From a virus: DNA of 32,000 bases. The stretch covers positions 2,567 through 34,566 of IMG/VR virus record IMGVR_UViG_3300029634_000134, one strand, 5' to 3'. A program made the position numbers and the translations under genes. Under the pieces are notes generated by a model, which saw only the letters and a list, made by a program, of their open reading frames with translations, searched no databases and was not told the origin of the DNA. Below are positions 6,021 through 20,699 of this stretch, piece after piece (the stretch's first letter is position 1; every line of letters begins with the position of its first letter).

Positions 6021-9000
6021 TTACGCGGGAACCAGTGACTTCCCGCCTCTCCGCCGCCCTTCGTCCACCAGCGGGTCATACACCACACTGGCAATCTGCT
6101 TTCCGTCCAGATTGATATTCAAGGTCACATTCTGGCCGCCTCCGCCCCGCTCCATCAGCGGAGCCAAAGCGTTCACCAGCCCGGAGACCAGATCAGCAGA
6201 AGTGTTTCCGCCGCCTGTGACGGGCAGGCTCCCCATGATCTCGTCGGCGCCGCGGCGCATCCGCCGTTTCACGTTCGCCATCTCCGACTCGAAGCCGACC
6301 ATGATCCCCTGGGCCGTGGGGACGCCCACCAGCTCGGCCATCTTCCGGCTCGGGGAGTGGATATCCAGGGCCCGCCGCATCTCGGCCACGATGGCGTCGG
6401 CAATGCTTCTCGCCGTGGCGATGGCCCTGCGCCCCTCGCTCTCCAGCCCGGAGCGCAGCCCCGCCATTGCGTCCCGGCCCGCCCGCTGGAACTTCCCGGC
6501 ACTGGCGGAAAAAGTGGCGCACACGGCCTCCACCGACTCCCCGGCGGCCCCCGTCAGTTGGGCCAGGGCGGCCTGAAATCCCCGGACCGTCTCGGTCATG
6601 ACCCCGGCCCCGGCGGCCTGGGTCCGCTCCGCCTGTCCGGCCACACCCTGGGCAAAGGCCCCCGCCGTCTCCTCTCCCGCCGTCTGGGCCTCTCCGGTTC
6701 CGGCCAGGGCGGAGGCAATGGTCTGCCCGACCTGGGCAAGCTGCTCCTCGGCCAGGGCGCCCAGCTCCACCGGCACCTCCACCGCAGGGATCTCCCGCTC
6801 GGCCTGTTCGGCGGCAAGCTGTCCCTTTTTGGCAAAGAGCTCAGCGTACTCGTCTAACTGCTTGTCGGAGAGCTGCAAAAGAGCGTGCAGCTCGTCCGCC
6901 GCCTTGGGCCCCATGTCCCGCAGCTCGTCCAGCAGCGGCCCGGTGATGCCCCGCCCGGCCAGGGCTTCCATGTCCGCCTGCCAGCCCTCAAAGGCCTTGA
7001 CTTGATCCCGCAGGTTCTTCAGCAGTTCCCGCCCGGACACGTCGTTTTTCTTCTCCACGCTGTCGAAAAGACCGGCGAAGCCCTCCAGGCTCTTGGCCCT
7101 GGACTGGACCGCCTTCTCGTACTCGTCGAAGGCCTTCTTCTGCTCGTCATAGATCTTCTGTTCCGCAGCCTGCTCTTCCTTCATCAGGTTTTGGCGGGCG
7201 GTGTACAGGTTCTTTTCCGCCTCGGCCTGCTCGTCGGCCAGCAGATTGTGGCGCTCCACCACCCGCTCCCAGGCCTCCACCTCCTCCTGGGCGGACAGCC
7301 GGTGATAAAACTTCTCGTTGTCGATCCATTTTTTCGAGTAGGTGTAGGCGTCCTTGGATGCCTTTGCGGAGGCGTCGGCGGCCTCCTTGGCCTCCTGCTT
7401 CCGGGCCTTGTAGAGGTTTTGGTCAATCTCTTTGAGCTCTTCGGCCCCCAGACCGCCCACCTCTTTGAGGGCTTCCCAGAAGTCGGCCTCCTCCCCTATG
7501 GTGAGCTGATCCAGGGCCTTCTTGTCCTTGACCCATCCGGAGGCGGCGTCATAGATGGCCTCCGACAGCTCTTCGGCGGTCTTGATGGCCTTCCCCTTCT
7601 TGTTCTCCATGCCCAGGGCAAAGCCCTCCACGGTGAACCCGCCCAGCTCGGCAAAGACGGTAGAGGGGGAATGGATTCCGAGGAAGTTTTTCACCCCGTC
7701 CACCACACCAGAGAAAAAGCCCTTCACCTGCTCCATGAGCCAGGCGCCCATGCCTTTGATACCCTCCCAGATGCCGGTGACCATGTTATTCCCGGCCTCT
7801 TTCAGGTCGTTCCACAGGTTTCCAATTCCCATCACCACCGTGGCCACGATCTCCCCGGCGGCCTGGCCCAGGTTGGAAAGCCCGCTTTTGATCCCCTCCA
7901 CCAGCTTGACAATCAGCTCCCCCGCCGCCTCCAGCAGCTTGGGGGCGTTGGTCACGATGGCCGAAACCAGCTTCCCCACAATCTCCGGCGCCTTCTCCAC
8001 CAGCCGGGGCAGGGCGGAAATCAGCCCGTCCGCCAGGGCAAAAACGAGGTCGATCCCGGCGTCCACAATCTGGTCGATGTCGCCCAGCAGTCCGTCCACA
8101 ATGGTGAGCACGGCGTCCACCGCCGCCGGGATCAGTGTGGGCAATGCGTTCGTGATGCCGCCCACCATCGCCAGCACCATCTGACGGGCCCCGTTCACGA
8201 CGCCGGGCAGGGCGCTCACCATGCCCTCCGTGACTTGCCCCAGGATGTTCCCGGCCTCATCGACAAGCCCCTGGAAGCCGCCCGCCTCGAACGCCTGGGT
8301 GAGCTGTCCAACGTACTGCGTTGCGGTCTGGGCCGCCTGTTTCAGCGGAGCGCCGATGCCCTCATAAACGGCAATTCCAAAGCCCTCGATGGAGGACTTC
8401 ATAATGGTAACAGCGCCCTTGAGGTTGTCTATCTGCACGTCGGCCATGTCCTGCATGGCGCCCCCGCTGTCGCTCACGGCGGCGGCCAGGGTGTCGAACT
8501 CCTCCCCACACCCGGCCAGCATGGCCTGGACGGACTTGAGGTCCACCTTATTGAACATTTCATTGAGGGCCGCCGTTTTCTCGCCCTCGGTCATTTGGGC
8601 CATGGAGGAGTCCAGGTCCTTGAACACCTCATTGAGGGGCCGCAGATTGCCCGAGGCGTCGTAAACCTCCAGCCCCAGGGCCTTCATCTGCTTTGCCGCC
8701 TTGTCGGTGGGGGCGGACAGGGACAGAATGATGTTTCTCAAAGCGGTGCCGCCCTCGGCCCCCTTGATGCCCCGGTTCGCCAGGACGCCCAGGGAGGTGT
8801 TGAGCTCCGTCACGCCCCCCGCCAGCCCCTTGGCCGTGCCGCCCACGGTAAGCGTGGCCTCGCCAAGCTGGGCCACGCTGGTGTTGGCCTTACTGGCCGT
8901 CCGGGCCATCTTGTCCCCGAACTCCGTCAGGCTTTCCTGGGACGCCTCGATCCCAAGCGCCGCCATGGCGTCGGTGGCTAGGTCGGAGGCGTAGGCCAAA

Positions 9001-9785
9001 TCCAGCCCGCCAGCCGCCGCCAGATTGAGGACAGCGGGAAGGGCGTCCGAGGCCTTTTCAGCGTCATATCCGGCCAGAGCCAGATAATTGAGGGCTTCCG
9101 CCGACTCCGTGGCGCTGAACTTCGTGGATGCCCCGGCGTCTTTGGCCGCCTGCTTCAGCGTTTCAAAGGCCTCGCTTCCGGCGGCGATCTCCTCCGGCGA
9201 CATTCCCATGGTGGCCGCCACCTGGGACATACCCTCCTCAAAGTCGGCACCGGCGCCCACAAACTCCTTCAGGGCCCGCCCCAGCTCCCTGGCCGCCGCC
9301 ACGACGGCCACCTGCATGGCGGTGATGCCCTGTTTGAACTTCTCCGTTTTGTCCCCGGTGGCCTGGGCCGTCCGCCCGAACTCGTCCAGCTTGTTCCCGG
9401 CCTCGTCGTACCCCCGCCGGACATTGGTCAGGTCCCGTTCGTTCTCCTCCAGGGCTTGCCCCAGCCGGTTCAGCTCCGTCTGAGCCCTGTTGACCTGCTG
9501 CTGCCACTTCTGGACAACCTCGCTGTTGTCGTCATATTTGCCCCGGGCGGCCTCCAGGCCCCTCTGCATCTCGGCCAGCTTCGTCTTCTGGGTGTCATAC
9601 TGCTTATTCAGCACTTCGCCCCTGGCGGTCAAGGCGGCCTCGCTCTTGTCCGTCTTGTCGAACGCAGACGCCACCATGCCCAGCTCGGTCCCCAGGGTCT
9701 TCATGGTGGTGTTGATGCCCTGGATGGCCCGCCGGAACTCGGCCTCCCCATCAATTCCAATTTTCGGTCCAATATCGTAGGACAT
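6021..9785 (-). CDS. Tail tape measure protein
   Basis: About 1254 aa, rich in Ala/Glu/Lys/Gly with a coiled-coil style. It carries two IHSPS motifs (GIHSPSTVFAELGG and DIHSPSRKMAELVG) typical of tape measure proteins. ATG 9785 is preceded by GGGAGGTG; the ORF track starts at GTG 9794. Confidence 0.9.
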   Translation of the reverse strand: MSYDIGPKIGIDGEAEFRRAIQGINTTMKTLGTELGMVASAFDKTDKSEAALTARGEVLNKQYDTQKTKLAEMQRGLEAARGKYDDNSEVVQKWQQQVNRAQTELNRLGQALEENERDLTNVRRGYDEAGNKLDEFGRTAQATGDKTEKFKQGITAMQVAVVAAARELGRALKEFVGAGADFEEGMSQVAATMGMSPEEIAAGSEAFETLKQAAKDAGASTKFSATESAEALNYLALAGYDAEKASDALPAVLNLAAAGGLDLAYASDLATDAMAALGIEASQESLTEFGDKMARTASKANTSVAQLGEATLTVGGTAKGLAGGVTELNTSLGVLANRGIKGAEGGTALRNIILSLSAPTDKAAKQMKALGLEVYDASGNLRPLNEVFKDLDSSMAQMTEGEKTAALNEMFNKVDLKSVQAMLAGCGEEFDTLAAAVSDSGGAMQDMADVQIDNLKGAVTIMKSSIEGFGIAVYEGIGAPLKQAAQTATQYVGQLTQAFEAGGFQGLVDEAGNILGQVTEGMVSALPGVVNGARQMVLAMVGGITNALPTLIPAAVDAVLTIVDGLLGDIDQIVDAGIDLVFALADGLISALPRLVEKAPEIVGKLVSAIVTNAPKLLEAAGELIVKLVEGIKSGLSNLGQAAGEIVATVVMGIGNLWNDLKEAGNNMVTGIWEGIKGMGAWLMEQVKGFFSGVVDGVKNFLGIHSPSTVFAELGGFTVEGFALGMENKKGKAIKTAEELSEAIYDAASGWVKDKKALDQLTIGEEADFWEALKEVGGLGAEELKEIDQNLYKARKQEAKEAADASAKASKDAYTYSKKWIDNEKFYHRLSAQEEVEAWERVVERHNLLADEQAEAEKNLYTARQNLMKEEQAAEQKIYDEQKKAFDEYEKAVQSRAKSLEGFAGLFDSVEKKNDVSGRELLKNLRDQVKAFEGWQADMEALAGRGITGPLLDELRDMGPKAADELHALLQLSDKQLDEYAELFAKKGQLAAEQAEREIPAVEVPVELGALAEEQLAQVGQTIASALAGTGEAQTAGEETAGAFAQGVAGQAERTQAAGAGVMTETVRGFQAALAQLTGAAGESVEAVCATFSASAGKFQRAGRDAMAGLRSGLESEGRRAIATARSIADAIVAEMRRALDIHSPSRKMAELVGVPTAQGIMVGFESEMANVKRRMRRGADEIMGSLPVTGGGNTSADLVSGLVNALAPLMERGGGGQNVTLNINLDGKQIASVVYDPLVDEGRRRGGKSLVPA

Positions 9786-9802
9786 ACCAGCCACCTCCCG
9801 GC

Positions 9803-9835
9803 AAATAAAAGAGCCGTCCGAACTTCGGACAGCTC
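9803..9835 (-). terminator. Intrinsic terminator oriented for the minus strand, 3 nt upstream of the tape measure SD
   Basis: The stem 9811-9835 (GAGCCGTCCG/CGGACAGCTC) has one C.A mismatch on the plus strand that becomes a G.U pair on the minus strand. On the minus strand it is followed by TTTTATTT (9810-9803). Confidence 0.55.
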
Positions 9836-9857
9836 TCTCTTATTAATTTCAATTTCC

Positions 9858-9886
9858 GTGACATTTTTGTAAAATCATGGTATTAT
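9858..9886 (+). promoter_or_regulatory. Sigma70-type promoter with extended -10 for the 2-TM protein gene
   Basis: gTGACA (9858-9863), 17-nt spacer, TGg TATTAT (-10 at 9881-9886). Confidence 0.55.
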
Positions 9887-9896
9887 AAACAAAAAG

Positions 9897-10532
9897 ATGT
9901 TGAACCTTAAGGAGATGTTTGACTTGTCCGATGGAATTGTTCTATTCCTTTTTGTCTTGTTTTTCGTCATTATCTGTATCTATGTTTCTGCACTCGCAAT
10001 CGCCCTGGATTTAACACTTCAAACAAACCGGCTTTACAAGGCTTTTTCCGCGCTTTTTCTATCAACATTTGAAAAAGAGATTGATGATGCCCGTTTAAAC
10101 GATTTGACTATCCGCTCTAAAAATATATTCTCTTCCCTTTGTGGACCAGAAAAGAGTAACAATACTTTTCAAAGAAGGATCCGCAATTACCTCACTAGAC
10201 TATATGACAATCCACGCTCCGTAAAAGTGGCCTTTGACAAGCGAGATCGGGTGGCCGATCTTGTTATGGCAATGATTAACCGGATGGAAGCAACCACTCC
10301 CGAATACTCGGAGATCCCATCTAAGGCAGGCGCCATTTTTGTTCAACTGGACGAAGCCTTAACGTTAAATAACACCCTCGCCGCAAAGAGCCATTTAAAT
10401 CTGCTTTCCACTGAGGTAAAAGCCCTTTTTGAGGAAAATAGAAAGCAGCAGAAACAAACAAAGTTAGCCACCTATACTTCATTCGCCGGTATTGCGCTTA
10501 CCATTATATTTGGGATTATATCAATGAAATAG
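9897..10532 (+). CDS. Two-pass membrane protein of unknown family (about 202-211 aa)
   Basis: Visibly AT-rich ORF. It has an N-terminal hydrophobic helix (IVLFLFVLFFVIICIYVSALAIALDL), a helical soluble domain of about 150 aa, and a C-terminal helix (YTSFAGIALTIIFGIISMK). The start is ambiguous: ATG 9897 is almost leaderless relative to the promoter, while in-frame TTG 9924 lies 9 nt after AAGGAG. Confidence 0.7.
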   Translation: MLNLKEMFDLSDGIVLFLFVLFFVIICIYVSALAIALDLTLQTNRLYKAFSALFLSTFEKEIDDARLNDLTIRSKNIFSSLCGPEKSNNTFQRRIRNYLTRLYDNPRSVKVAFDKRDRVADLVMAMINRMEATTPEYSEIPSKAGAIFVQLDEALTLNNTLAAKSHLNLLSTEVKALFEENRKQQKQTKLATYTSFAGIALTIIFGIISMK

Positions 10533-10542
10533 CCCCTAAAAG

Positions 10543-10568
10543 CGCCGGCCTATCAGGTCGGCGTTTTT
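10543..10568 (+). terminator. Intrinsic terminator, possibly bidirectional
   Basis: CGCCGGCC-TATCA-GGTCGGCG stem-loop followed by TTTTT, 11 nt after the stop at 10532. On the minus strand the same stem is followed by CTTTTA. Confidence 0.65.
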
Positions 10569-10603
10569 GATGAAACAATTTGAAAGAAAATATGTGAAAA
10601 CGC

Positions 10604-10632
10604 TTGACAAATATACGTACGTATGTTATTAT
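10604..10632 (+). promoter_or_regulatory. Near-consensus sigma70 promoter for the small-peptide/RHH operon
   Basis: TTGACA (10604-10609), 17-nt spacer, TGt TATTAT (-10 at 10627-10632). Confidence 0.65.
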
Positions 10633-10655
10633 TATATCAGAAAGGAGGTCAAGCA

Positions 10656-10775
10656 TTGAGCAAGAAAAAGAAAAGCGGCAACAAGGAGCAGCCCGCCAGC
10701 TACATCACCCTTGTTACCGCCATCATCAACCTCGTGGTTTCTCTCATACTGCTGTATGAAAAGCTCACGAGTTGA
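10656..10775 (+). CDS. 39-aa membrane peptide (candidate type I toxin-like)
   Basis: TTG start 7 nt after AAAGGAGG. Translation is MSKKKKSGNKEQPASYITLVTAIINLVVSLILLYEKLTS: a Lys-rich N-terminus followed by one hydrophobic helix. Below the ORF-track cutoff. Confidence 0.5.
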   Translation: MSKKKKSGNKEQPASYITLVTAIINLVVSLILLYEKLTS

Positions 10776-10778
10776 GGC

Positions 10779-10798
10779 GAGGGGGAGCAATCCCCCTC
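10779..10798. promoter_or_regulatory. Stable 8-bp stem-loop between the two peptide ORFs
   Basis: GAGGGGGA-GCAA-TCCCCCTC is a perfect stem with a GNRA-type loop on the plus strand and no U-tract. It coincides with the predicted 5' end of the antisense transcript. Confidence 0.5.
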
Positions 10799-10805
10799 CC
10801 CTCAG

Positions 10806-10834
10806 ATGATAGCAAATAAGCCGCTCAATGTCAA
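10806..10834 (-). promoter_or_regulatory. Antisense promoter convergent on the 39-aa peptide gene
   Basis: Minus strand reads TTGACA (10834-10829), 17-nt spacer, TATCAT (10811-10806). The predicted start near 10799 is the first base of the 10798-10779 hairpin. Confidence 0.5.
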
Positions 10835-10839
10835 ACACT

Positions 10840-10938
10840 ATGGATACTTTGGTTTATGTGCTCCTTGGAATCAACATCGTTCTTTCCATCGTCGCCATCA
10901 TTCTGTCCGTCAAGGCCATCCGGAACGGGAGGAAATAA
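10840..10938 (+). CDS. 32-aa membrane peptide
   Basis: Translation is MDTLVYVLLGINIVLSIVAIILSVKAIRNGRK: one hydrophobic helix plus a basic tail. The stop lies 1 nt before the RHH gene ATG. No obvious SD, so confidence is low. Confidence 0.4.
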   Translation: MDTLVYVLLGINIVLSIVAIILSVKAIRNGRK

Positions 10939-10939
10939 T

Positions 10940-11266
10940 ATGCTGGAAGAGAGCAAGTATAAATCCCAAATGAAAAACCTGCGTAAGAACTATGTCCGCT
11001 TTCCCTTGGACCTGAAACCGGAAGTTCTGGACGGCTTCAAAGCTGCCTGTTCGGCCAACGGGACCACCCCCACTACGGAAATCAAAAAATTTATTGCCCG
11101 ATACTGCGCTAAATATGGCCGGGGCGTTCCCGGTCTGACGACGGACGTCGAAGTTGAACTTCCCGCCAACCTTGCCCGCTTCGCCACTGAACAAGGCATT
11201 GACTTAAATGACTTTTTGGTTGACTTATTGACTGAAAAGCTGGGTTCAGATGGAGAAAAAACATGA
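10940..11266 (+). CDS. Tandem ribbon-helix-helix (Arc/CopG-like) DNA-binding protein (108 aa)
   Basis: Internal ATG of track ORF 10856..11266, preceded by GGGAGG. Two strand-helix-helix units can be read: YVRFPLDLKPEVLDGFKAACSANGTTPTTEIKKFIARY and VEVELPANLARFATEQGIDLNDFLVDLLTEKL. Confidence 0.65.
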   Translation: MLEESKYKSQMKNLRKNYVRFPLDLKPEVLDGFKAACSANGTTPTTEIKKFIARYCAKYGRGVPGLTTDVEVELPANLARFATEQGIDLNDFLVDLLTEKLGSDGEKT

Positions 11267-11772
11267 CGTTCCACGGCATGAGCGGCACACGTCTCTACCG
11301 CATTTACAGCGGAATGAAACAGCGTTGCTACAACCCCCACGCTCCTCAATACTCCCGTTATGGTGGGCGTGGTATCACCGTCTGCCCTGCATGGCTTGGC
11401 CCCGAAGGGTTCCAGCACTTTTATAAATGGGCGATGGAACATGGTTACAAAGACCCGCTTACGATTGACCGAATCAACTCAAATCAGGGTTATGCGCCGG
11501 AAAATTGCCAATGGCTCACTTTGAGCGACAATTCCTCAAAGGCCCAGCGAGAAAAGAGCCTTCGCCGTTGGGACGGACACGGACCGCATGCGTTGCCAGA
11601 CATGAGCAAATGCTCTCTTTTCGTCCAGGGACTTTTGAAAAAAGGATGGCGGCCCGCTTTTGCGTCTGCCGACCAAGTCCTTCTTAAAAAGGGCCATCAA
11701 AAAATTACGGTTCCTATCAAAGACGAGCCAAAGGAAAAAATAAAGCAACTGCTGTCTCCCATCATCAAATAG
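11263..11772 (+). CDS. Phage-type DNA-binding protein of the YGGRGI...IDRI-N-x-Y-x-x-NCxW (degenerate HNH/AP2-like) family, with a C-terminal extension
   Basis: The N-terminus TRLYRIYSGMKQRCYNPHAPQYSRYGGRGITVCPAWL...LTIDRINSNQGYAPENCQWLT matches a widespread phage family often annotated as HNH endonuclease but lacking the first catalytic His. The ATG overlaps the stop of the RHH gene (ATGA at 11263-11266). Confidence 0.75.
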   Translation: MTFHGMSGTRLYRIYSGMKQRCYNPHAPQYSRYGGRGITVCPAWLGPEGFQHFYKWAMEHGYKDPLTIDRINSNQGYAPENCQWLTLSDNSSKAQREKSLRRWDGHGPHALPDMSKCSLFVQGLLKKGWRPAFASADQVLLKKGHQKITVPIKDEPKEKIKQLLSPIIK

Positions 11773-11804
11773 CCGGAGGCCCCCACGGGCCCCCGGCTTT
11801 TCTT
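11771..11804 (+). terminator. Intrinsic terminator ending the plus-strand island
   Basis: The stem GCCGGAGGCCC/GGGCCCCCGGC has 10 bp plus one A.C mismatch and a CCAC loop. It is followed by TTTTCTT and starts at the stop codon of 11263..11772. Confidence 0.7.
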
Positions 11805-11807
11805 GTC

Positions 11808-11915
11808 CTATGGGATATCCGGAAGCATTTCCTCGTCGTCCACCGCTCTGGCCTCCCTGGCCCCCTTGCTGATATTGTAGCAGGCAATGAGGTCCAACAG
11901 CTCCCCGTATGGCAT
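11808..11915 (-). CDS. 35-aa ORF in the -1 frame of the tail chaperone (gpT-like tail or independent small protein)
   Basis: Translation is MPYGELLDLIACYNISKGAREARAVDDEEMLPDIP. GGGAGGTG lies 6 nt upstream of ATG 11915. The same frame is open upstream back to the A7 slippery run at 12003-12009. Confidence 0.45.
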   Translation of the reverse strand: MPYGELLDLIACYNISKGAREARAVDDEEMLPDIP

Positions 11916-11947
11916 ACACCACACCTCCCGCTGAGAGAGACCTATCT

Positions 11948-12397
11948 TCAGTCCGAGGTAGAGGCACCACGCAAAGGTTCCTCCCCCTGCGTGGCCGCCC
12001 CGTTTTTTTCGCCGTCCTCCGGCTCAGTCTCCACGGTGCGAGTCATGCTGCGGTTCATCGTGGCGAACACTTTCTTCATCAGCCCATTTATGTCGATGCC
12101 ATCCATGAGAATGGAAATTTCCTCCTGGGTGGGAGCCGTGTCATTGGCCCCCTCCAAAAGGTTCCGCCTCGCAACCCCCTGATTCACCAGCAGGGCCAGC
12201 ATCCAAAACAGGTTTTCCATCAGATTCGCTTCGTCGTTCCCTGGAAAAAGCGTGTTCATTTTTTCCAGAGAGCCACACCGTCCCACCACGGCCTGGGTCG
12301 CCGCCAGAGAGAAAACCATGGGGTAATCCTTTCCCCCGATAGAGACGGAAGGGTAATCCCGGCCAGCCAGACAAATGGTATCCTTCACCCCATCCAT
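11948..12397 (-). CDS. Tail assembly chaperone (gpG-like)
   Basis: 149-aa acidic protein directly downstream of the major tail protein gene. A slippery heptamer lies near its 3' end. Confidence 0.7.
   Translation of the reverse strand: MDGVKDTICLAGRDYPSVSIGGKDYPMVFSLAATQAVVGRCGSLEKMNTLFPGNDEANLMENLFWMLALLVNQGVARRNLLEGANDTAPTQEEISILMDGIDINGLMKKVFATMNRSMTRTVETEPEDGEKNGAATQGEEPLRGASTSD
12002..12008 (-). promoter_or_regulatory. Candidate -1 programmed frameshift heptamer A_AAA_AAC
   Basis: In the chaperone frame the codons are GAA AAA AAC, giving X_XXY_YYZ. The -1 frame then runs stop-free for about 65 codons to the TAG at 11808-11810. Confidence 0.4.
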
Positions 12398-12409
12398 GCC
12401 GCCGCCCCC

Positions 12410-13282
12410 TTACGCCCCGGCGGTCTTAGTGACCGTCACGGTGTACACCTTCTTGGCCCCGCCGTTGGTGACGGTGATGGTGACAGTGTTTTCCCCCTCC
12501 GCCCAGGTGGCGGCGGTGCCATTGGCGACGGTGGTCCCGCCCACGTCGATGGTCACAGCGGCGCCGGTGGCGGCGGTGGCCGTGATGGTGTTGGTGGCGT
12601 TGGCGGTCTCGGCGGCATACAGGGTCACCGCCGGGTCAAAGGCCGGGGTCAGGGTGAGGCTTCCCAGGCTCAGGCCGGTCAAAGCGGCGCTCTCCTCCAC
12701 GATGTTCAGCTTCTGCTTGATGTAGGCCCTGGCAAGCGCCTCGCTCTCCACCGTGGCCTCCATTTTCCAGTTGTGCTCCTCGGTGTCGTCCCGCATGATG
12801 GTGCCCTCCAGCTTGGGGGTCTGCCACTCGATTTTCTCCCCCATGGTCTTGGCGCTGTCCTCGGGCACACTGAACTTGACCTTGGGCAGGACCACCGCAC
12901 GGAAGAGTAGCTTGCCGTCCTTCTTCTTGGGAATGATGATGCCCATGCCCAGATCGGGGTCCTTCCGGTTCTCCCCGAAGGCCAGCTCCATCACGGTCTT
13001 TTCCCCCACCTTCACCTCACGGGGCTCCACCCCGAGAATGGCGGCGCCGACCTCCTGGGTCAAATCATCGGTGGTGATGCTCACCGTGCCGCCCGCAAAA
13101 CTGGTGTCACTCTCGGCCACCCCGTCGTCGGCATAAAGGTTATTGTCGCTTGCGCTCTCGATCTTGGCGGAAAACTCCACCGCCTTGCCCAGCAGACCGC
13201 CGCCGGAATAGCTCACGGCGCCCGTCACCGGGTCCACGGTGTATTTGGCGAAATAGGGAGATCTCAGTCCGATCCCTGCCAT
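12410..13282 (-). CDS. Major tail protein with a C-terminal Ig/cadherin-like decoration domain
   Basis: Position between the neck genes and the chaperone. ATG 13282 lies 8 nt after GAAGGAG. The C-terminal part, LTGLSLGSLTLTPAFDPAVTLYAAE...TVTITVTNGGAKKVYTVTVTK, looks like a cadherin-like beta-sandwich repeat. Confidence 0.8.
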   Translation of the reverse strand: MAGIGLRSPYFAKYTVDPVTGAVSYSGGGLLGKAVEFSAKIESASDNNLYADDGVAESDTSFAGGTVSITTDDLTQEVGAAILGVEPREVKVGEKTVMELAFGENRKDPDLGMGIIIPKKKDGKLLFRAVVLPKVKFSVPEDSAKTMGEKIEWQTPKLEGTIMRDDTEEHNWKMEATVESEALARAYIKQKLNIVEESAALTGLSLGSLTLTPAFDPAVTLYAAETANATNTITATAATGAAVTIDVGGTTVANGTAATWAEGENTVTITVTNGGAKKVYTVTVTKTAGA

Positions 13283-13287
13283 ATCAA

Positions 13288-13770
13288 TCACTCCTTCATT
13301 GTTTTCTGAATTTCTTCCTCGACCACACGGCCCATCTCCGCCTCCGCCTTTTTCCTCACGGCGGTAACGGCGGGCCGGACAAAGGGCGTTTTTTGCCGCA
13401 CAGAAGACCCGCTTTCAACGGCTCGGGCCAACAGTTGATTCGGCACACCCTTCGGATATTTCTTGGTCGGATTGGAGCCGTACCCGTCAAATCCGACCTT
13501 GGCGCTAATGTATCCGTCTCCGCCAATCTGGATCGGCGTAATCCCAAAGGATTCCTCCAAATCCCGCTTTTGCCGGGCTGGAAGGCCGGAAAAAAGCTCT
13601 CTCTTCCCCAAGCGCCGAAAGCGCTCCTCCGGCAAAGCAGTCAGATTCTTTTTCACTGCGTCGGCCACGATCCCGGCCCCGGCGTAAACTGACTTTTTCG
13701 CAATCTCCTCCGACCCGGAGGCCAGCTTGGAGAGCTTGAGGGCGTATTCCTCCCCCAGCTTGAGCGTCAT
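13288..13770 (-). CDS. HK97 gp10-like neck/tail completion protein
   Basis: Internal ATG 13770 overlaps the upstream stop (ATGA). The sequence MTLKLGEEYALKLSKL...PFVRPAV and the position fit the gp10 family. Confidence 0.65.
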   Translation of the reverse strand: MTLKLGEEYALKLSKLASGSEEIAKKSVYAGAGIVADAVKKNLTALPEERFRRLGKRELFSGLPARQKRDLEESFGITPIQIGGDGYISAKVGFDGYGSNPTKKYPKGVPNQLLARAVESGSSVRQKTPFVRPAVTAVRKKAEAEMGRVVEEEIQKTMKE

Positions 13771-14689: not shown

Positions 14690-16069
14690 TTACTTTCCGG
14701 AGTTGGCGGGCGCCACAGGCTCGGTCTGGCCGGCGAAGTCCACACTGGTGGTCGGGGCCTTACCGGAGATGTTCAGTCCCACGAAGCCTTCGGGGATGGC
14801 AGGAACACCGTCATACCGGGCGGTCCCTTTGAAGATGGTCTGGTCCTCGACGAACCGGGCGTGCTCACTCTGGCCGATGGCCGCACCGGCCCGCTCGGCC
14901 AGCAGGTAGAGGTCGCCGTAACCGCCCACCACGTCGCCGTCGGGGATGAAGTCCAGCTCCACAATGTCGCCGCCCACAATAGGCATCGTCCCATTCTGGG
15001 CGGAGACAACGGCCCCGGCGGCGTTGAAGGTGACGGCCTCCGCCTGAAGCATGGTCTTGGTGGTCTCGCTCATAGCCCAGAACTTGACCCCCCGGCTGAA
15101 CTTGCCCTTGGCTTTGCCGGAGGCCAGCACCAGAGCCTTGAACAGATCCACACCGCTCTTGCCGCTGATGGTAACCAGGTTGCTGGTATGCAGGTCTTCC
15201 CAGGGCCGGGCGGTGGCGGAATAATCGGAGGGCTTGGCGGTCTGGGCCAGCCGGGTCATGACGCCCAGGGGCATCTTGACGCCCTTGCCGTACAGCACGG
15301 CCTTGTCCAGGGCGTAGCCGATGGCCTGCCCCAGAGCGGTGATGATCTCAGAGGCCAGGGCAATGTCGGAATCCTCCATCGTGGCGTTGCACACGGCGAT
15401 AAAGCCGCCCACCTTGTAGCCGTCCACCTCCACGTTGTTGAAGGTAAGGGACAGCTCATTCAGACTGGCGCACATCTCCGTCCAAACGCCCTCGGGGATG
15501 GTCCCCATGATGTTCTGGCGGGCCTTGCCGGGTACAGGCCTGACATTGACATACTTGTAGAGCTTGCTGTACCCCTGGACCTGCTCCCGAATCAGGCCCA
15601 GCATCACCTCGGGGATCAACAGCTCCGAGCCGTTGATGGCCCGCTTCTGTCCGGCCAGCTCCCGCACCCGCACGAGGAAGTCTTTCACATCCTCCCTCGC
15701 CAGGAAGGCGTCCCGCCGCTCCATGGTCATACCGAAAAACGCTCTCGTCTCCATCTGAACCTCTCCCTTTCTCTCCTGTCCGCCGGTGGGGGCGGGCTTC
15801 TTCCGCTCCAACGCCTCCACCTCGGTTTCGATTTCTTTGATCTCGCCCTCCAGGGCGGTGGCCGCCTTCTCGTTGGCGTCCTTATCCCGGTCATACTGCT
15901 CCACGGCCTCTTCCACGGCCTGCTTCTCCTCGTCGCTCCGGGCCTCGTCGATATCCTTTTCCAACTCGGCCTCCCGCCGCTGGAAGTCCTCGGCCTGCCG
16001 CCGCAGCTCTTCCAGCTCCGTGCGCTTCTCCTCCAGCTTCTTGCGAAGCATCAATACCTTCAGCGCCAT
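14690..16069 (-). CDS. Major capsid protein, HK97 family, with an N-terminal coiled-coil delta domain
   Basis: 459 aa. The N-terminus is rich in charged, coiled-coil-style sequence. It directly follows the prohead protease gene. Confidence 0.9.
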   Translation of the reverse strand: MALKVLMLRKKLEEKRTELEELRRQAEDFQRREAELEKDIDEARSDEEKQAVEEAVEQYDRDKDANEKAATALEGEIKEIETEVEALERKKPAPTGGQERKGEVQMETRAFFGMTMERRDAFLAREDVKDFLVRVRELAGQKRAINGSELLIPEVMLGLIREQVQGYSKLYKYVNVRPVPGKARQNIMGTIPEGVWTEMCASLNELSLTFNNVEVDGYKVGGFIAVCNATMEDSDIALASEIITALGQAIGYALDKAVLYGKGVKMPLGVMTRLAQTAKPSDYSATARPWEDLHTSNLVTISGKSGVDLFKALVLASGKAKGKFSRGVKFWAMSETTKTMLQAEAVTFNAAGAVVSAQNGTMPIVGGDIVELDFIPDGDVVGGYGDLYLLAERAGAAIGQSEHARFVEDQTIFKGTARYDGVPAIPEGFVGLNISGKAPTTSVDFAGQTEPVAPANSGK

Positions 16070-16651
16070 TTACTCACTCGCTCCCTTCTTCATCTTGTTG
16101 CGCATCTCTTCCCGCCACATCTCCAGGCGGCGGGTCCGCACCGCTTCGTAATCCCGCTTCCGGGCCGCCACCCCCGTCTCCTCGTAGGCCGGGAACGTGA
16201 CCACGCTCACCTCGTAGAGCCTGACCTTTTTGATGGTCCAGTGGACCGTCCCGTCCTCCTTGTAGTCGGTCTCCTCGTCCAGAATGTCAAACCCAAAGGA
16301 ACACTGGGACACGTCCCCCCGCTGGACCCTGGCGTACAGGTTCATGGCGTCGGTGTCGTCCTGGTTGAGCCGAATCCGGCCCCACAGCCCCCGGCTGTCC
16401 TCCCGGAGCTCCAGCGTTCCCGCCGCCGTCCGGCCCAGCACCAACCGGGTCTCATGGTCCACCAGGGCCCGCACGTCTGCGGACAGGGCATCTGAAAAGG
16501 CCCCCGGCGCCACGCTCTCCGTGGCCCCCGGCCACAGCTCGTAGTTACTGCCGAAAACCGAGAAATATCCCTCGATGTACTTTTCTCCCGTCTCCTCCCT
16601 GGTCTGGAACTCCGCCGGAAGGCTCCTCGTCTGCATCTGTTTCCTATCCAT
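16070..16651 (-). CDS. HK97-family prohead serine protease
   Basis: Contains the [11 protein letters not shown] motif and lies between the portal and capsid genes. ATG 16651 lies 8 nt after GGAGG. Confidence 0.85.
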
Positions 16652-17843
16652 CCGCTTCACCTCCGTTCAGCTTTTTTTGCTCCCCGATCATGCCTCGGGG
16701 GATGTAGTTCTCCAGGATCACCAGTTCGTCCAGCCCGTCCTTGGGGCTCAGGCCCAGCCAGTCCCGAACCTCGTTGCCCGTCATGATGCCCCGCACGAAC
16801 TGATCGTCCCCCACCTGGGCCAGCTCCTTGATATCGTAAGCGTGGAGGGCCCTGGCGTTGAACCGGAAATAGAGCTCGGGAGAAACCAGCAGCTTGCGGG
16901 TCAACTCTTGCTCGATCCCTCGGGCAATGGGCAGAATGGTGGCGTCAATGAAGCTGTTCCACTCATCCCGCTTGAACTCTCCCACGCCCACCACAAAGGG
17001 GGGCACATGGAAAATCCCGGCCACCGTCCGCTTGTCGATGGTAACGGAATCGTTGAGCGCCAGATCATTGAGCGTCAGCGGCTTCACCTGTTCCACGTCG
17101 ATGAGGTCGGCGGGCAGCACCCAGGGCGTCCCGGCCTCCTCCGTCCTCATGTACTTTTCCAGCAGGGCGTCCCGGCCCCGCTCCGACGCCATCTCTTCAG
17201 CGCTGGAGTTGACCCGCACGATAATAGAGGGCTTCCACTTGGATTCCATGAAGCCCTTCTTGGTCTGCGCCGCCTGCCGGAGGTTGTGGACCACATCCCG
17301 CAGGGCCACCCTGGCCCCCCGGCCCATCCATGGCCGCTCCGGGTCTGGGTTATAGACGAAATGGAGCACTTCATCCGGGCGGTATACCGCCCCGCCGCAG
17401 CGGATCAGATAGCCGTCCCCCTCCGCCTGGAACGTGAGAGAGGAAGGCTTGAGCGGGGCCAGATTGTCGATGCGCCCGCCCGAAATTTCGGGCAGGACCA
17501 CGGCGTTTCCGACCCCCTCCAGAAGCATGGTCCTCACCAGATTTGTCATAAAGGTCATCCGGGTCATGTTCCGGCTGGGCTCAATGTCGATTTTCCGACT
17601 CAGCCCGTTTTTGATTCTCACATCTCCCCGGTCCGTGTTCTGCATGAGGTGGATCGTCATAGACCCGATGAGCCCGGCGATACGGTCCACCGCCATCAAC
17701 ACCTCCGGGTTTTCCGACAGACGGGTGAATCCAGGCACACACAGCCCGTCATACCCTTCCTGAGACAGCAGGAAGGCCACCGCCCCGTCCTGGGGCTTGT
17801 CCCTGGCCGGGTGGCCCCTCAGCTTTTTCTTACTCAATGCCAT
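16644..17843 (-). CDS. Portal protein (HK97 family)
   Basis: 399 aa immediately after the large terminase gene. AAGGGGG SD. Confidence 0.9.
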
Positions 17844-17849
17844 ACCCCC

Positions 17850-19616
17850 TTATAGCCACTGTTTTGCTTTTTCGTTGAGCTCCATAGCCTCCAGCTTCCG
17901 CACACAGGCGAAAACCGAGGCGTCAAAAACGTCGATACGCTGCTCCGGCTCAACTTTTTCATATTGAATCATGTCGTCGGTCTTCTCGATGGCCCGGACA
18001 TTCTGGACGCAATACTCGAAGGGGTCGGCATGGAGGTAATAAAGCTCACCGTTCTTGGCCTTGACCTCGATATGCCGGAACCCCTCCGACTTCTTGTAGT
18101 AAAGCTGCGGCTGATCCACCACGTTGAATCCCGCCGTTTTCATACCCACGTAATACTCCCGGCAGAATTTCCGGTCATGGCCCACCTGTTTGATCTTGAA
18201 GCCCTTACGCCGCATCTCCACAAACCAGTTGACCACCTCCGCATGGTTCACCGTGGGGCTGTTGCACATGTCCAGCCATCCGTCGTCCTTCCAGCCGAAG
18301 AGGGGGATGCCGTCCTCGTCGGCCTTCTGGTGGGCGGCCACCACCGGGAACCAGGCGTGAGGGATGATAATGTCCACGTCCACCTTCTTTCCATCCGCCC
18401 GCTCCCAGCCGTACAGGGTCCCATAGAGCACGGCGGCGGTCAAATCGTGGAGTTTGGACAGGTCGGCGCCGCCATACCACGCCACCGGCAGGGCGGCCAG
18501 ATCTTCCAGGCTCCAGTCGTACAGCTCGTCGGAGCGCTGGAACTCCCCCAGGTCGAAATAGGCCCGCAGGGCGGAGGTGTAAACGTTCAGGCTCTTCGCC
18601 AGAAAGTCTTTTCTCTGCTGGGGGTCGTTCTGGGCCTCCAGGGCGTCGTTCATAATGTCGTCCGGGCGGATGGTCACACCGTAAGCCGGGTTTGCCATTT
18701 CATGGATGCGGGGATTCGTGAAATCCACATCCCCGTTCTCCCCCTCTTCCGCCTTGCAGATGAAAATGAAGAGCTGCTCGTTCTTCACCAGACCGTCCAG
18801 CACCTTCTTGCAGTATTGAAGCCGCCGGTAGCAAAAGCTGGACATGTTGTCGCCCGCCGTGGTGATCCCGATCATCAGCTTATTGGTATAAGCCTTCATG
18901 GCCTCCTTGATGATGTTGTACTGCTTGGGGCTTTTGAAGGCGTGGATCTCGTCGGCAATCGCCACGTTGCAGTTCAAGGAATCCTGAGCGTCCGGGTTGG
19001 CCGCCAAGGCCTGGATGAAGAGCGAACCCCCGTCCAGTTCCCCGCTGATGGAGTGTTCCTGATTGTTGTCGATCACCCGGAAGTTGTCCTTCTCCCCCAT
19101 CTCCCCCAGATTGAAGTTGATGAAGTCAAAGCTCTCCAAGCTCTGCTTCAGGGCGGCGGCCACGATATAAACCTTACTGCCGCTCTTCCGGTTGAGCACC
19201 GCCAGGGCCCAGGCCAGGGCGGCGGAGAAGGAGGTCTTGACGTTCTTCCGGGGGATATAGATAAAGGCCTCCTTGAAGCGGCGGACCTTCCGGTCTGTCC
19301 CCGCCTCATAGAAGCCCAAGAGGTTATAGACGATGAACTTGTGAAAGGGCAGCAGCAGAAACGGCTTGCCCCGCATGGGGGTTCCGTCCAGCGCTTCCCC
19401 CTGTTGATGGACAAAGGTCTGCTCAATGAGCCGGATAACAAACTCGGCCTCTCGGGTGTCGAACTCAAACGCCGGGTCCTCCAGGTCCCGCAAAAACCGC
19501 TCACACGCCTGCTTCAGCTCCGGACAGGCAATTTTCCGCCCCTCCACGATCCCGCTGACATAATCCATGACCTCCCGCCGGTTTGGCGAGGGGGCGCCGC
19601 CCCTTTTACGGCCCAC
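17850..19616 (-). CDS. terL: Terminase large subunit
   Basis: 588 aa with an ATPase-like N-terminal half. It follows the small terminase gene with an 11-nt overlap. GTG start lies 9 nt after GGAGG. Confidence 0.9.
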
Positions 19617-20440: not shown

Positions 20441-20469
20441 TTTACATCAATTTTTAAACATGATATAAT
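20441..20469 (+). promoter_or_regulatory. Near-consensus sigma70 promoter for the Zn-ribbon insert
   Basis: TTTACA (20441-20446), 17-nt spacer, TGa TATAAT (-10 at 20464-20469). Confidence 0.65.
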
Positions 20470-20499
20470 GCACTAAATTAAATTTTAGGAGGTATTGTT

Positions 20500-20643: not shown

Positions 20644-20656
20644 TCTCATAAACACT

Positions 20657-20695
20657 ACCGCCGGAGGATTTATATATCCCCCGGCGGTCTTTTTT
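20657..20695 (+). terminator. Intrinsic terminator of the Zn-ribbon insert
   Basis: The ACCGCCGGAGGA/TCCCCCGGCGGT stem has one A.C mismatch and is followed by CTTTTTT. Confidence 0.75.
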
Positions 20696-20699
20696 AGTT

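What the first reader, a model, noticed from the sequence alone, without database searches (positions are those of the whole stretch)
9803..11804. Opposite-strand, AT-rich accessory island splitting the tail chaperone from the tape measure gene
In siphoviruses the chaperone (G/GT) and tape measure genes are normally adjacent and co-expressed. Here they are separated by about 2 kb encoded on the other strand. By eye, the left half of the island (about 9.9-10.7 kb) is clearly AT-rich compared with the GC-rich structural genes. The island has its own near-consensus promoters with extended -10 boxes (9858-9886, 10604-10632) and its own terminators (10543-10568, 11771-11804). It encodes nothing that looks like a virion part: a 2-TM protein, two mini membrane peptides, a tandem-RHH protein and a degenerate-HNH-like protein. 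The layout is that of a lysogen-expressed insert. The content suggests a superinfection-exclusion, abortive-infection or toxin-antitoxin function, but I cannot match it to any named defence system.
Basis: partly seen in the sequence, partly recalled or inferred. Interest (0 to 1): 0.8.

Follow-up and report, generated by a model that had tools for sequence, protein, structure and literature searches.

The report
Moron island between chaperone and tape-measure
A 2-kb block of foreign genes with its own on/off signals sits backwards between two tail genes of a gut-bacterium prophage, at the site where the first phage "moron" was described; it is real but of a familiar kind, and what its cargo does is still unknown.

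Summary
[quoted passage not shown] Five related Oscillospiraceae phages have TMP 12-25 nt after the chaperone. A sixth carries a different insert at the same slot. Three of the window's four near-consensus extended -10 promoters lie in the island, along with three strong hairpin terminators.

The island is nested. Unit 1 is P1, a 2-TM protein (p211) and a bidirectional terminator. p211 belongs to a rare family with no known fold.

Unit 2 is a portable cassette:
- an operator-bearing promoter P2;
- a toxin-like mini-peptide (p36/p32);
- a probable tandem-RHH protein (p108), whose gene overlaps the next;
- p169, an I-HmuI-type HNH domain lacking the catalytic His and Asn, plus a HicA-like fold.

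This is a moron. It occupies the same slot as HK97 gene 15, and its layout is analogous to the P22 "ant moron" (sieA, RHH repressors, sar RNA). No known defence system matches. Defence, exclusion or addiction remain plausible but unshown. Interest is moderate.

The parts
12002..12008 (-). A_AAA_AAC slippery heptamer for the -1 frameshift that makes the GT chaperone fusion. It marks the true end of the tail-chaperone unit on the island's right side.
   Evidence: Sequence reading. The T-part ORF is in the -1 frame and is conserved in relatives.
11808..11924 (-). T part of the G/GT chaperone (right flank; not part of the insert).
   Evidence: 43-60% identical in L094, L095, L096, L097, L111, L112 and L113, always directly after the chaperone.
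11771..11807 (+). Right-hand terminator T_R of the cassette (hairpin 11771-11798 followed by UUUUCUUGU). It stops P2 transcripts from running antisense into GT.
   Evidence: strand folding gives dG -23 kcal/mol, z -3.9. In the late-operon direction the hairpin is -29 kcal/mol but has a poor U tract.
11263..11772 (+). p169: N-terminal I-HmuI-type HNH (beta-beta-alpha-metal) domain with a degenerate active site (D69-R70, K93), joined to a C-terminal alpha-beta-beta-beta-alpha domain with a HicA-like fold.
   Evidence: PHROG 3377/374 'HNH endonuclease', 2e-39. More than 1000 homologues, and no Pfam model covers the N domain. The family profile hits 1U3E at E 3.4e-4. AF2 pLDDT 84.6; Foldseek top hits are HicA (probability 0.97, E 0.15). 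HMM and hhalign comparisons with HicA are not significant.
10940..11266 (+). p108: probable tandem ribbon-helix-helix (Arc-like) DNA-binding protein. Its stop overlaps the p169 start (ATGA).
   Evidence: PHROG 582 Arc-like repressor, 5.5e-5. Sub-threshold ParG and HicB-RHH hits for the two halves. Full-length homologues always precede full-length p169 homologues.
10828..10938 (+). p36/p32 mini-ORF (likely ATG 10840): a hydrophobic helix with a basic tail. It ends 1 nt before the p108 start.
   Evidence: Same position and character in four diverged cassette versions, and it has a consensus RBS in two of them. There is no SD sequence in the window copy.
10806..10834 (-). P3, the antisense promoter (TTGACA-17-TATCAT with TG).
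   Evidence: The hexamers are conserved at the same place in four diverged versions while the spacers differ.
10665..10799 (-). Predicted ~135-nt cis-antisense RNA covering the p39 ORF. It has a 5' GC hairpin (10773-10804) and a 3' intrinsic terminator (long hairpin followed by UUUUCUUUUUC, encoded opposite the KKKSG codons).
   Evidence: strand folding z -4.6. The terminator hairpin forms in all four versions (dG -25 to -31) with different stem sequences. RNAalifold finds 15 pairs with compensatory changes. No Rfam family matches.
10656..10775 (+). p39 mini-ORF (MSKKKKSG...TAIINLV...), with TTG start 7 nt after AGGAGG.
   Evidence: Homologues in L009/L125, L126 and L132 (43% identity to L009; a shared M[ST]xKKKSG...TAI[IL]N[LF][IV] pattern is seen by eye).
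10604..10632 (+). P2 promoter (TTGACA-17-TATTAT with TG), with the perfect palindrome ATACGTACGTAT (10613-10624) in its spacer. The palindrome is a presumed operator.
   Evidence: Other cassette versions carry a different spacer palindrome together with a different DNA-binding gene.
10537..10569 (.). Bidirectional terminator ending unit 1 (A tract, hairpin, U tract).
   Evidence: strand folding gives dG -22.3, z -5.8.
9897..10532 (+). p211: membrane protein with N- and C-terminal TM helices flanking a ~150-aa helical domain (alternative starts at 9915 and 9924).
   Evidence: Only 26 remote homologues among 1.84 billion representatives, all about 200 aa with the same architecture. G198, T202, F205 and G206 in TM2 are invariant. 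AF2 pLDDT 87.8, all helical. No analogue in PDB or BFVD. No match in 50,697 phage records.
9858..9886 (+). P1 promoter (GTGACA-17-TATTAT with TG) for p211.
9807..9839 (-). Left-hand terminator T_L (15-bp stem followed by UUUUAUUU on the minus strand), just upstream of the TMP RBS (GGGAGG 9800-9795).
   Evidence: strand folding gives dG -24, z -6.3. A near-identical hairpin bounds the cassette in L079 and L127.

Best explanation
Window 9801-11807 is a moron island. It is foreign DNA inserted exactly between the G/GT chaperone stop and the TMP ribosome-binding site of an integrated temperate siphophage of an Oscillospiraceae-type host. It is built to be transcribed on its own, against the direction of the late operon.

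The island is nested.

Unit 1 (P1, p211, bidirectional terminator; GC 0.40) sits inside an older portable cassette. It encodes a protein with two TM helices. I infer from the basic residues flanking both helices that the ends face out and the ~150-aa helical domain is cytoplasmic. I infer that it is made in the lysogen and acts at the membrane. The most likely role is superinfection exclusion at the DNA-entry step, as for HK97 gp15, which is encoded at the same slot.

Unit 2 (T_L, P2, p39, antisense RNA from P3, p32, p108, p169, T_R) is a self-regulating expression cassette.
- P2 carries an operator palindrome in its spacer, which I infer the RHH protein p108 binds.
- P3 faces P2 and makes a ~135-nt antisense RNA across p39. 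I infer that this RNA lowers expression of the downstream genes by RNA pairing and promoter interference.
- The cargo p169 is a homing-endonuclease-derived HNH domain that has lost its catalytic His and Asn, fused to a HicA-like fold. It is therefore more likely a nucleic-acid-binding regulator or effector than a nuclease.

The layout is functionally analogous to the P22 'ant moron' (sieA, Arc and Mnt RHH repressors, sar antisense RNA, cargo).

Shown: the insertion, composition, promoters, terminators, modularity, conservation of the antisense unit, domain identities and degenerate active site.
Inferred: prophage expression, operator-repressor pairing, the effect of the antisense RNA, and every biological role.
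For: Insertion: five relatives have T part and TMP adjacent, and L094 has a different insert in the same slot.

Foreign composition.

Independent signals: three of the four strongest promoters of the window lie in the island, against an expectation of 0.02. There are three hairpin terminators with z -3.9 to -6.3.

Temperate, integrated phage.

Nesting: the L079, L081, L127 and L129 variants go from the T_L-like hairpin straight to P2', so they lack the p211 unit promoter-to-promoter.

Portability of the small-ORF and antisense unit: four diverged versions keep the sense promoter, p39, hairpin, antisense promoter and p32, but carry different DNA-binding genes and different spacer palindromes.

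Antisense RNA: its terminator hairpin is kept in all four versions with different stem sequences, and it is followed by a U tract that exists only on the antisense strand.

Portability of p108/p169: full-length homologue pairs lie on the opposite strand to flanking structural genes at three other sites. These are upstream of TerS (L122), after a protein end that by its motif I read as a tape-measure C-terminus, next to a LysM gene (L123), and beside a probable tail gene (L124).

p169 active site.

p211: a coherent rare membrane family with a confident all-helical model.

Precedents: HK97 gene 15 lies between the chaperone and TMP genes and encodes an inner-membrane exclusion protein (PMC3594210). 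The P22 ant moron contains sieA, mnt, arc, sar and ant and varies between close relatives (PMC2629481).
Against: No expression data exist, so prophage expression rests on promoter consensus and orientation only.

p211 has no similarity to any known exclusion or defence protein. The Pfam SieB hit has E 0.084, PADLOC finds nothing, and there is no structural analogue. Its remote homologues sit on short contigs with no clear phage context.

p108 is only moderately supported as RHH, and its second half only weakly.

The antisense RNA covers p39, not the toxin-like p32 or the p108 RBS, so its target and effect are guesses.

The p32 ORF has no Shine-Dalgarno sequence in the window copy.

p169 has no similarity to known antirepressors, so the P22 analogy is one of layout, not homology.

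A strong terminator in the late direction sits directly in front of TMP. That would be costly unless late transcription reads through, and this is unexplained.
Confidence: 0.6

Rival explanations
1. The right half is a toxin-antitoxin or addiction module that stabilises the prophage or aborts infection. One version is type I: p39 or the hydrophobic, basic-tailed p32 is the toxin, held in check by the P3 antisense RNA. The other is a HicAB-like type II pair, with p108 as the RHH antitoxin and p169 as the toxin.
For: A convergent sense/antisense small-ORF unit is conserved in four versions. p32-type peptides match the 'hydrophobic N-terminal region and positively charged tail' described for prophage type I toxins of C. 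difficile, and p39 has the same AGGAGG-7-nt RBS (PMC7699646). The p108 and p169 genes overlap by 4 bp, as in many type II pairs. The p169 C-terminus has a HicA-like fold. The p108 C-terminal half gives a weak HicB RHH hit. Some family members carry a HicB-like domain (PF15919).
Against: The antisense RNA does not overlap p32. p39 homologues are amphipathic rather than clearly transmembrane. The HicA catalytic His is absent in the window copy, and sequence-profile tests against HicA are not significant. The gene order and domain make-up differ from hicAB. PADLOC finds nothing. Toxicity has not been tested.
Confidence: 0.25
2. The right half is, or descends from, a selfish free-standing homing-endonuclease cassette that spread into intergenic gaps of conserved structural operons. 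It gives the host nothing. The promoters and repressor only limit its cost.
For: The p169 N domain is homologous to the homing endonuclease I-HmuI. It occurs in 986 cultured phage genomes, including Staphylococcus and Bacillus phages of 140-170 kb (which I take to be lytic myophages), often in several copies and annotated as HNH homing endonuclease. The family shows modular fusions to DNA-binding domains. The cassette is found at four different intergenic sites in structural modules. The L079/L081 chimera has its join inside the cassette.
Against: The general-base His and one metal ligand are replaced in this subfamily, so cleavage, and hence homing, is doubtful. The constant opposite-strand orientation, with its own strong promoters, operator and antisense RNA, points to selected, regulated expression rather than mere persistence.
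Confidence: 0.2
3. The island serves the lytic cycle. Its terminators and convergent promoters set the dose of TMP and downstream tail genes relative to tube and chaperone, or its proteins act in tail assembly.
For: A strong late-direction terminator lies immediately before the TMP RBS, and two more hairpins lie in the path of late transcripts. From general knowledge, TMP is needed in far fewer copies than tube protein. The P22 literature proposes that the ant moron affects read-through into the tailspike gene (PMC2629481).
Against: Five relatives with homologous tail genes do without any insert. The genes are on the opposite strand, have foreign composition, and resemble no virion or assembly protein.
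Confidence: 0.07
4. The island is an assembly artefact or chimera.
For: Metagenome-derived relatives include chimeric-looking contigs (L079, L081).
Against: The same junctions, at 99.7-100% identity, are present in the 16 loci fetched from independent ENA, JGI and Logan assemblies, including contigs of about 90-100 kb. The p211 and p169 clusters are also recorded on a 471-kb contig.
Confidence: 0.01

Closest known systems
HK97 gene 15 moron (gp15 superinfection-exclusion protein)
   Same: [quoted passage not shown] It has its own promoter and terminator, its GC differs from its neighbours, and related phages lack it. The product is a small inner-membrane protein, as p211 is predicted to be a membrane protein (PMC3594210).
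   Different: There is no sequence or fold similarity. From my own recollection, not checked here, gp15 is a single small YebO-like protein encoded on the late strand. Here there are five ORFs, at least two nested units and an antisense RNA, all on the opposite strand. Exclusion by p211 has not been shown.
P22-like 'ant moron' (sieA + immI: mnt, arc, sar RNA, ant)
   Same: It is a variable insert inside the late operon. It combines a membrane exclusion gene, RHH repressors, a small antisense RNA (sar) that helps control the cargo gene, and a cargo gene. Late transcripts must read through it (PMC2629481). Other versions of the cassette found here carry a Bro-N antirepressor-type protein as cargo (L132).
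   Different: Only a PHROG Arc-like match for p108 links the two by sequence. There is no Mnt and no Ant homologue. By my recollection sar pairs with the arc-ant junction, whereas the antisense RNA here covers an upstream mini-ORF. Two mini-peptides are added. The cargo is a degenerate HNH / HicA-like protein. The orientation is opposite to the late operon.
Type I toxin-antitoxin modules of Clostridioides difficile prophages (CD0977.1/RCd11 and others)
   Same: Prophage-borne small ORFs of 34-47 aa with a consensus AGGAGG RBS 7-8 nt upstream, a hydrophobic N-terminus, a basic tail and a convergent antisense RNA (PMC7699646). p39 shares the RBS and the antisense cover. p32 shares the toxin-like shape.
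   Different: The two features fall on different ORFs. The unit is the leader of a longer operon rather than a stand-alone pair. There is no sequence similarity, and toxicity is untested.
I-HmuI-type HNH homing endonucleases (PDB 1U3E; PHROG 3377/374)
   Same: The beta-beta-alpha-metal core aligns (E 3.4e-4) and Asp69 matches Asp74. The gene is phage-borne and free-standing, lies in intergenic gaps, and shows modular fusion to DNA-binding domains.
   Different: The general-base His75 is replaced by Arg70 in at least 90% of the aligned family members. The position that I recall as the metal ligand Asn96 is Lys93 in this subfamily. No nuclease activity can be assumed.
HicAB type II toxin-antitoxin
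   Same: The p169 C-terminal domain is predicted to be alpha-beta-beta-beta-alpha, and its best structural matches are HicA toxins (TM 0.55 on the target, probability 0.97). The partner p108 has a weak HicB-type RHH match.
   Different: Sequence-profile tests are not significant. The catalytic His is absent in the window copy. From general knowledge of hicAB, the usual gene order is reversed here, and the domain is fused to an HNH-like domain.

Membership tests
Moron (sense of Juhala/Hendrix 2000, as summarised in PMC3594210) | Extra DNA present in one phage and absent at the same place in related phages | tested here: met
   Five relatives have T part and TMP 12-25 nt apart. L094 has a different insert there.
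Moron | GC content differs from that of surrounding genes | tested here: met
   GC 0.46 (units 0.40 and 0.50) against 0.61-0.64. GC3 0.44-0.56 against 0.69-0.87.
Moron | Own promoter and terminator | tested here: met
   P1, P2 and P3 reach >=10/12 with an extended -10, against an expectation of 0.02. Three hairpin terminators have z -3.9 to -6.3. This is sequence-level evidence only.
Moron | Expressed from the repressed prophage | not testable with these tools
   Needs RNA-seq or a reporter in a lysogen.
P22 immI-type secondary immunity region | RHH repressor encoded in the operon it represses, with an operator at the promoter | tested here: inconclusive
   p108 matches Arc-like PHROG 582 at 5.5e-5. 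The palindrome ATACGTACGTAT lies in the P2 spacer, and other versions pair other palindromes with other DNA-binding genes. Binding has not been tested.
P22 immI-type secondary immunity region | Small antisense RNA from a promoter convergent with the operon promoter | tested here: met
   P3 and its terminator are conserved in four diverged versions. The transcript itself has not been observed.
P22 immI-type secondary immunity region | Antirepressor (Ant) as cargo, and a Mnt maintenance repressor | tested here: not met
   No Ant or Bro-N match for p169 and no divergent mnt-like gene in the island. A Bro-N cargo is present only in the L132/L135 version.
HNH endonuclease (I-HmuI / HNH_3 type) | Homologous beta-beta-alpha-metal core | tested here: met
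   The family profile hits 1U3E at E 3.4e-4. PHROG HNH families match at 2e-39.
HNH endonuclease (I-HmuI / HNH_3 type) | General-base His (I-HmuI His75) and metal-ligand Asn (Asn96; residue roles from my own knowledge of I-HmuI) | tested here: not met
   Arg70 aligns with His75 and Lys93 with Asn96. Asp69 (matching Asp74) is kept.
HicA toxin | HicA (dsRBD-like) fold | tested here: inconclusive
   The Foldseek top hits are 4c26, 6g26 and 6hpb (probability 0.93-0.97 for the first two, 0.33 for 6hpb; TM on target 0.54-0.57; E 0.15-2).
HicA toxin | Sequence-profile membership and the catalytic His | tested here: not met
   No Pfam or PDB profile hit, and hhalign gives E 0.13. The aligned position reads SADQ in the window copy, while a His is present in P0033 and P0034.
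Type I toxin-antitoxin | Small hydrophobic toxin with a basic tail and a strong RBS | tested here: inconclusive
   p32 has the shape (KD 2.85) but no SD sequence in the window. p39 has AGGAGG but an inverted charge pattern.
Type I toxin-antitoxin | Antisense RNA overlapping the toxin mRNA | tested here: inconclusive
   The predicted antisense RNA covers p39 fully and p32 not at all.
Type I toxin-antitoxin | Toxicity of the peptide, neutralised by the RNA | not testable with these tools
   Needs expression tests.
Known anti-phage defence systems (PADLOC-DB 2.0) and Sie families in Pfam | Profile match to a component | tested here: not met
   PADLOC gives no hit at E<=1 for any of the five products. 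Pfam SieB gives E 0.084, far below its cut-off.

The most novel reading that the evidence does not exclude
The unit made of operator-bearing promoter, Lys-rich mini-ORF, conserved cis-antisense RNA, toxin-like mini-peptide and small DNA-binding protein is an undescribed family of portable, antisense-gated switch cassettes in phages of gut Clostridia. It delivers varied cargo into late operons: a degenerate-HNH / HicA-like protein here, and a Bro-N antirepressor-type protein elsewhere. It acts as a second immunity, addiction or defence locus. Beside it, p211 founds a new family of membrane exclusion proteins genetically linked to the tape-measure gene.
Probability: 0.25. Interest if true: 0.6.

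Novelty: new variant of a known kind. Interest (0 to 1): 0.4.

Why it matters
As a class this is familiar. Morons in late operons are long known, including one at this very junction. What would matter if it holds:

1. A compact cassette conserved in four diverged versions, with swapped repressor genes and matching operator palindromes. That gives a ready-made natural set for studying antisense RNA plus repressor control in poorly studied phages of gut Oscillospiraceae.
2. A rare, confidently folded two-TM protein family with no known relative, placed next to the tape-measure gene. It is a concrete candidate for a new exclusion mechanism.
3. An HNH homing-endonuclease domain that has lost its catalytic residues and is reused with RHH, HTH or HicA-like partners. 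This may be an example of domestication of a selfish nuclease.
4. The question of how late transcription passes a strong terminator placed directly before TMP.

Tried and rejected
- DNA similarity of 9000-12500 to 50,697 phage records: no match.
- Chaperone as a probe for relatives: nothing in IMG/VR and only near-identical copies in the protein database. I switched to the major tail protein, which worked.
- Pfam, NCBIfam and PADLOC on all five products: nothing significant.
- PDB sequence searches with p211, p108 and p169 alone: nothing.
- p211: word-based homologue search found only itself. The exhaustive search gave 26 remote homologues. Foldseek against PDB and BFVD and a profile search against PDB found no analogue. 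The weak Spore_III_AB and SieB Pfam hits were not borne out. Genomic contexts of four homologues were short and uninformative.
- HicA homology of the p169 C-terminus: the profile against PDB, Pfam and hhalign were all non-significant. I keep it only as a fold resemblance.
- Internal repeat of p108: BLASTP of one half against the other finds nothing.
- Rfam on the island at a permissive threshold: only sub-threshold, terminator-driven hits.
- Operator-like direct or inverted repeats beyond the P2 palindrome: none convincing.
- The consensus terminator scan missed the three main hairpins, so I folded them directly.
- Misassembly: rejected.

Full report
**Setting.** The window is almost a whole integrated temperate siphophage. 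The structural genes run on the minus strand:
- TerL 17850-19616, portal 16644-17843, protease 16070-16660, capsid 14690-16069
- major tail protein 12410-13291 (PHROG 88), tail chaperone 11948-12397 (PHROG 2115)
- TMP 6021-9794 (PF10145)
- tail tip and fibre genes further left.

An integrase (30365-31603), an XRE repressor (28870-29379) and tRNA-Val (31690-31766) mark the lysogeny end. The clusters of the p211 and p169 proteins are also recorded on a 471-kb contig. Relatives found through the major tail protein lie mostly in Oscillospiraceae genomes: Butyricicoccus, Pseudoflavonifractor, Intestinimonas.

Five plus-strand ORFs fill 9897-11772. Island GC is 0.46 (left unit 0.40, right unit 0.50), against 0.61 and 0.64 in the flanks. 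GC3 of the three larger genes is 0.44-0.56, against 0.69-0.87 for structural genes.

A re-scan of the whole 32 kb finds only four sites with at least 10 of 12 consensus positions plus an extended -10, and three are in the island. A first-order Markov model of the island predicts 0.02. The consensus scan tool had missed them.

**It is an insertion.** The small ORF 11808-11924 is the T part of a canonical G/GT pair. It is in the -1 frame, and an A_AAA_AAC heptamer lies at 12008-12002. The T part is conserved in relatives. In L095/L109, L096, L111, L112 and L114, TMP begins 12-25 nt after the T part, or directly after the chaperone region. In L094 the same gap holds a different 2.6-kb same-strand insert with a Bro-N/Ant protein. 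So the gap between T and TMP is a variable slot, and the island is 9801-11807. All copies with an identical chaperone are the same phage at 99.7-100% identity in many independent assemblies, which rules out misassembly.

1. A third near-consensus promoter, P3, on the minus strand at 10834-10806. It faces P2.
2. A strong minus-strand terminator at 9807-9839 (-24 kcal/mol, followed by UUUUAUUU) just upstream of the TMP RBS.
3. The island is nested. Contigs L079, L081, L127 and L129 carry the right half, but there a hairpin almost identical to 9807-9839 is followed at once by the P2 promoter. The whole p211 unit is therefore absent, promoter to promoter.

**Unit 1 (p211).**
- Hydropathy and the AlphaFold model (pLDDT 87.8) give two terminal TM helices and a ~150-aa helical domain.
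- Basic residues flank both TM helices on the domain side. I therefore infer that the ends face out and the domain is cytoplasmic.
- An exhaustive search of 1.84 billion representatives finds only 26 remote homologues. All are about 200 aa with the same layout. They share a conserved P-x-x-x-P-x-KEA motif and invariant G198, T202, F205 and G206 in TM2.
- Pfam, PHROG, PADLOC, PDB and BFVD give no significant match, and there is no match in 50,697 phage records.
- Its function is therefore inferred only from layout. A separately promoted membrane protein next to TMP recalls HK97 gp15.

**Unit 2, the leader.** P2 has the perfect palindrome ATACGTACGTAT in its spacer. It drives p39 (AGGAGG, 7 nt, TTG). 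After p39 come a GC hairpin, P3 on the other strand, then p32/p36, whose stop lies 1 nt before the p108 start.

A pattern search found the same arrangement in three other diverged versions: L009/L125, L126-type and L132-type. In all four versions:
- The sense promoter, the p39-like ORF (M[ST]xKKKSG...TAI[IL]N[LF][IV]), the hairpin, the antisense promoter hexamers (TTGACA, 17-18 nt, TATC[AC]T) and a hydrophobic, basic-tailed mini-ORF keep their places.
- The spacers and most other bases differ.
- On the antisense strand a long hairpin (-25 to -31 kcal/mol) with different stem sequences is followed by UUUUCUUUUUC, the complement of the KKKSG codons.
- RNAalifold finds 15 pairs with changes on both sides.

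This is good comparative evidence for a ~135-nt cis-antisense RNA. No Rfam family matches it. The gene that follows differs between versions: tandem RHH here, a 71-aa HTH in L127, a 66-aa XRE in L126, and a 69-aa protein plus a Bro-N protein in L132. The spacer palindrome differs with it. That fits an autoregulated, portable switch.

**Unit 2, the cargo.**
- p108 matches Arc-like PHROG 582 (5.5e-5). It has sub-threshold ParG and HicB-RHH hits for its two halves.
- The p169 gene overlaps p108 by ATGA.
- The p169 N domain has more than 1000 homologues and no Pfam model. PHROG calls the family HNH endonuclease (2e-39). A family profile hits I-HmuI (1U3E) at 3.4e-4.
- In that alignment Asp69 is kept, the general-base His is Arg70, and the metal-ligand Asn is Lys93.
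- The domain occurs in 986 cultured phage genomes, including Staphylococcus and Bacillus phages with 140-170-kb genomes. It is often multi-copy and annotated as a homing endonuclease.
- The closest relatives fuse it to XRE HTH domains and follow a small XRE or RHH gene.
- The C-terminal 50 residues are predicted as alpha-beta-beta-beta-alpha, and HicA toxins are the best structural matches (probability 0.97, E 0.15). Sequence-profile tests are not significant, and the catalytic His is missing here.
- Full-length p108/p169 pairs occur at three other sites, always on the opposite strand to flanking phage genes. They lie upstream of TerS (L122, with two more mini TM peptides downstream), after a protein end that by its motif I read as a tape-measure C-terminus, next to a LysM gene (L123), and beside a probable tail gene (L124).

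**Comparison with what is known.**
- The term moron was first applied to HK97 gene 15. That gene lies between the chaperone and TMP genes, has its own promoter and terminator, differs in GC, and encodes an inner-membrane exclusion protein (PMC3594210).
- The 'ant moron' of P22-like phages lies in the late operon. It holds sieA, the RHH repressors Mnt and Arc, the antisense RNA sar and ant. It shows ten types in sixteen genomes, and late transcripts must read through it (PMC2629481). The island here has the same logic but, apart from a PHROG Arc-like match for p108, no shared sequences.
- Type I TA modules of C. difficile prophages share the small-ORF and antisense-RNA theme (PMC7699646). However, the toxin-like ORF and the antisense cover do not coincide here.

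**Verdict.**
- The island is a genuine, well-delimited moron, nested from two mobile units (about 0.9).
- The antisense RNA is probably real (about 0.75).
- p108 as autorepressor at the palindrome is plausible (about 0.5).
- p169 as a non-catalytic binding protein is likely (about 0.5).
- p211 as an exclusion protein is a reasoned guess (about 0.3).
- Toxin-antitoxin and selfish-element readings of the right half remain open.

The finding is a new variant of a known kind, of moderate interest.

Noticed in passing
window 20441-20643 (+), with 20650-21100: A second opposite-strand mini-unit. The window's fourth strong promoter (TTTACA-17-TATAAT with TG, 20441-20469) is followed by AGGAGG and a 47-aa CxxC...CxxC ORF (20500-20643). 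It lies between the phage HNH gene (20120-20434, minus) and the next minus-strand gene (21106-21558, unannotated; by eye possibly a late regulator). About 450 nt of GC-rich, ORF-poor DNA follows.
   Followed up: partly
L079 and L081, about 9560-10340 (window equivalent 10597): Two independent assemblies join this phage's TerS-to-GT genes and island unit 2 to another phage's HNH-TerS-TerL-portal-ClpP-capsid module. The join lies inside the P2 spacer, next to a T_L-like hairpin. The cassette seems to act as a recombination joint between phages.
   Followed up: partly
window 9795-9839 (-): A strong intrinsic terminator in the late-operon direction sits directly before the TMP RBS, and two more hairpins lie in the path. 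How TMP and the downstream tail and lysis genes are transcribed is unexplained. Antitermination or deliberate attenuation are possibilities.
   Followed up: no
L094 9255-11634: A related phage fills the same chaperone|TMP slot with a different, same-strand 2.6-kb insert: a 298-aa unknown, an 89-aa protein with a weak, sub-threshold DUF6809 hit, and a 264-aa Bro-N/Ant antirepressor-type protein.
   Followed up: partly
L132/L135 (about 8000-9400 of L132): One version of the small-ORF and antisense cassette carries a 69-aa protein and a Bro-N domain protein as cargo. This links the cassette type to antirepressor-like genes.
   Followed up: no
window 12002-12008 and 11808-11924 (-): A canonical A_AAA_AAC -1 frameshift site gives a GT fusion. 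The T part is 43-60% identical in relatives although the G part is only 26-34% identical.
   Followed up: yes
window 12410-13291 (-): The major tail protein carries a C-terminal cadherin-like beta-sandwich domain (PF12733, 1.7e-8). That domain also matches the decoration-like end of PHROG 10 head proteins, and several unrelated viral contigs share only this domain.
   Followed up: no
L008 4308-4933: A canonical-looking hicA (60 aa, sequence read by eye) and a 144-aa hicB-like gene lie next to an RHH + HNH-like/HTH pair in another viral contig. This may be coincidence, or may bear on the HicA-like fold of p169.
   Followed up: no
window 9000-13000 (method note): The consensus terminator scan did not report the hairpins at 9807-9839 and 10537-10569, and reported only the inner 5-bp stem of the one at 11771-11798. 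Direct folding shows all three with z -3.9 to -6.3.
   Followed up: yes
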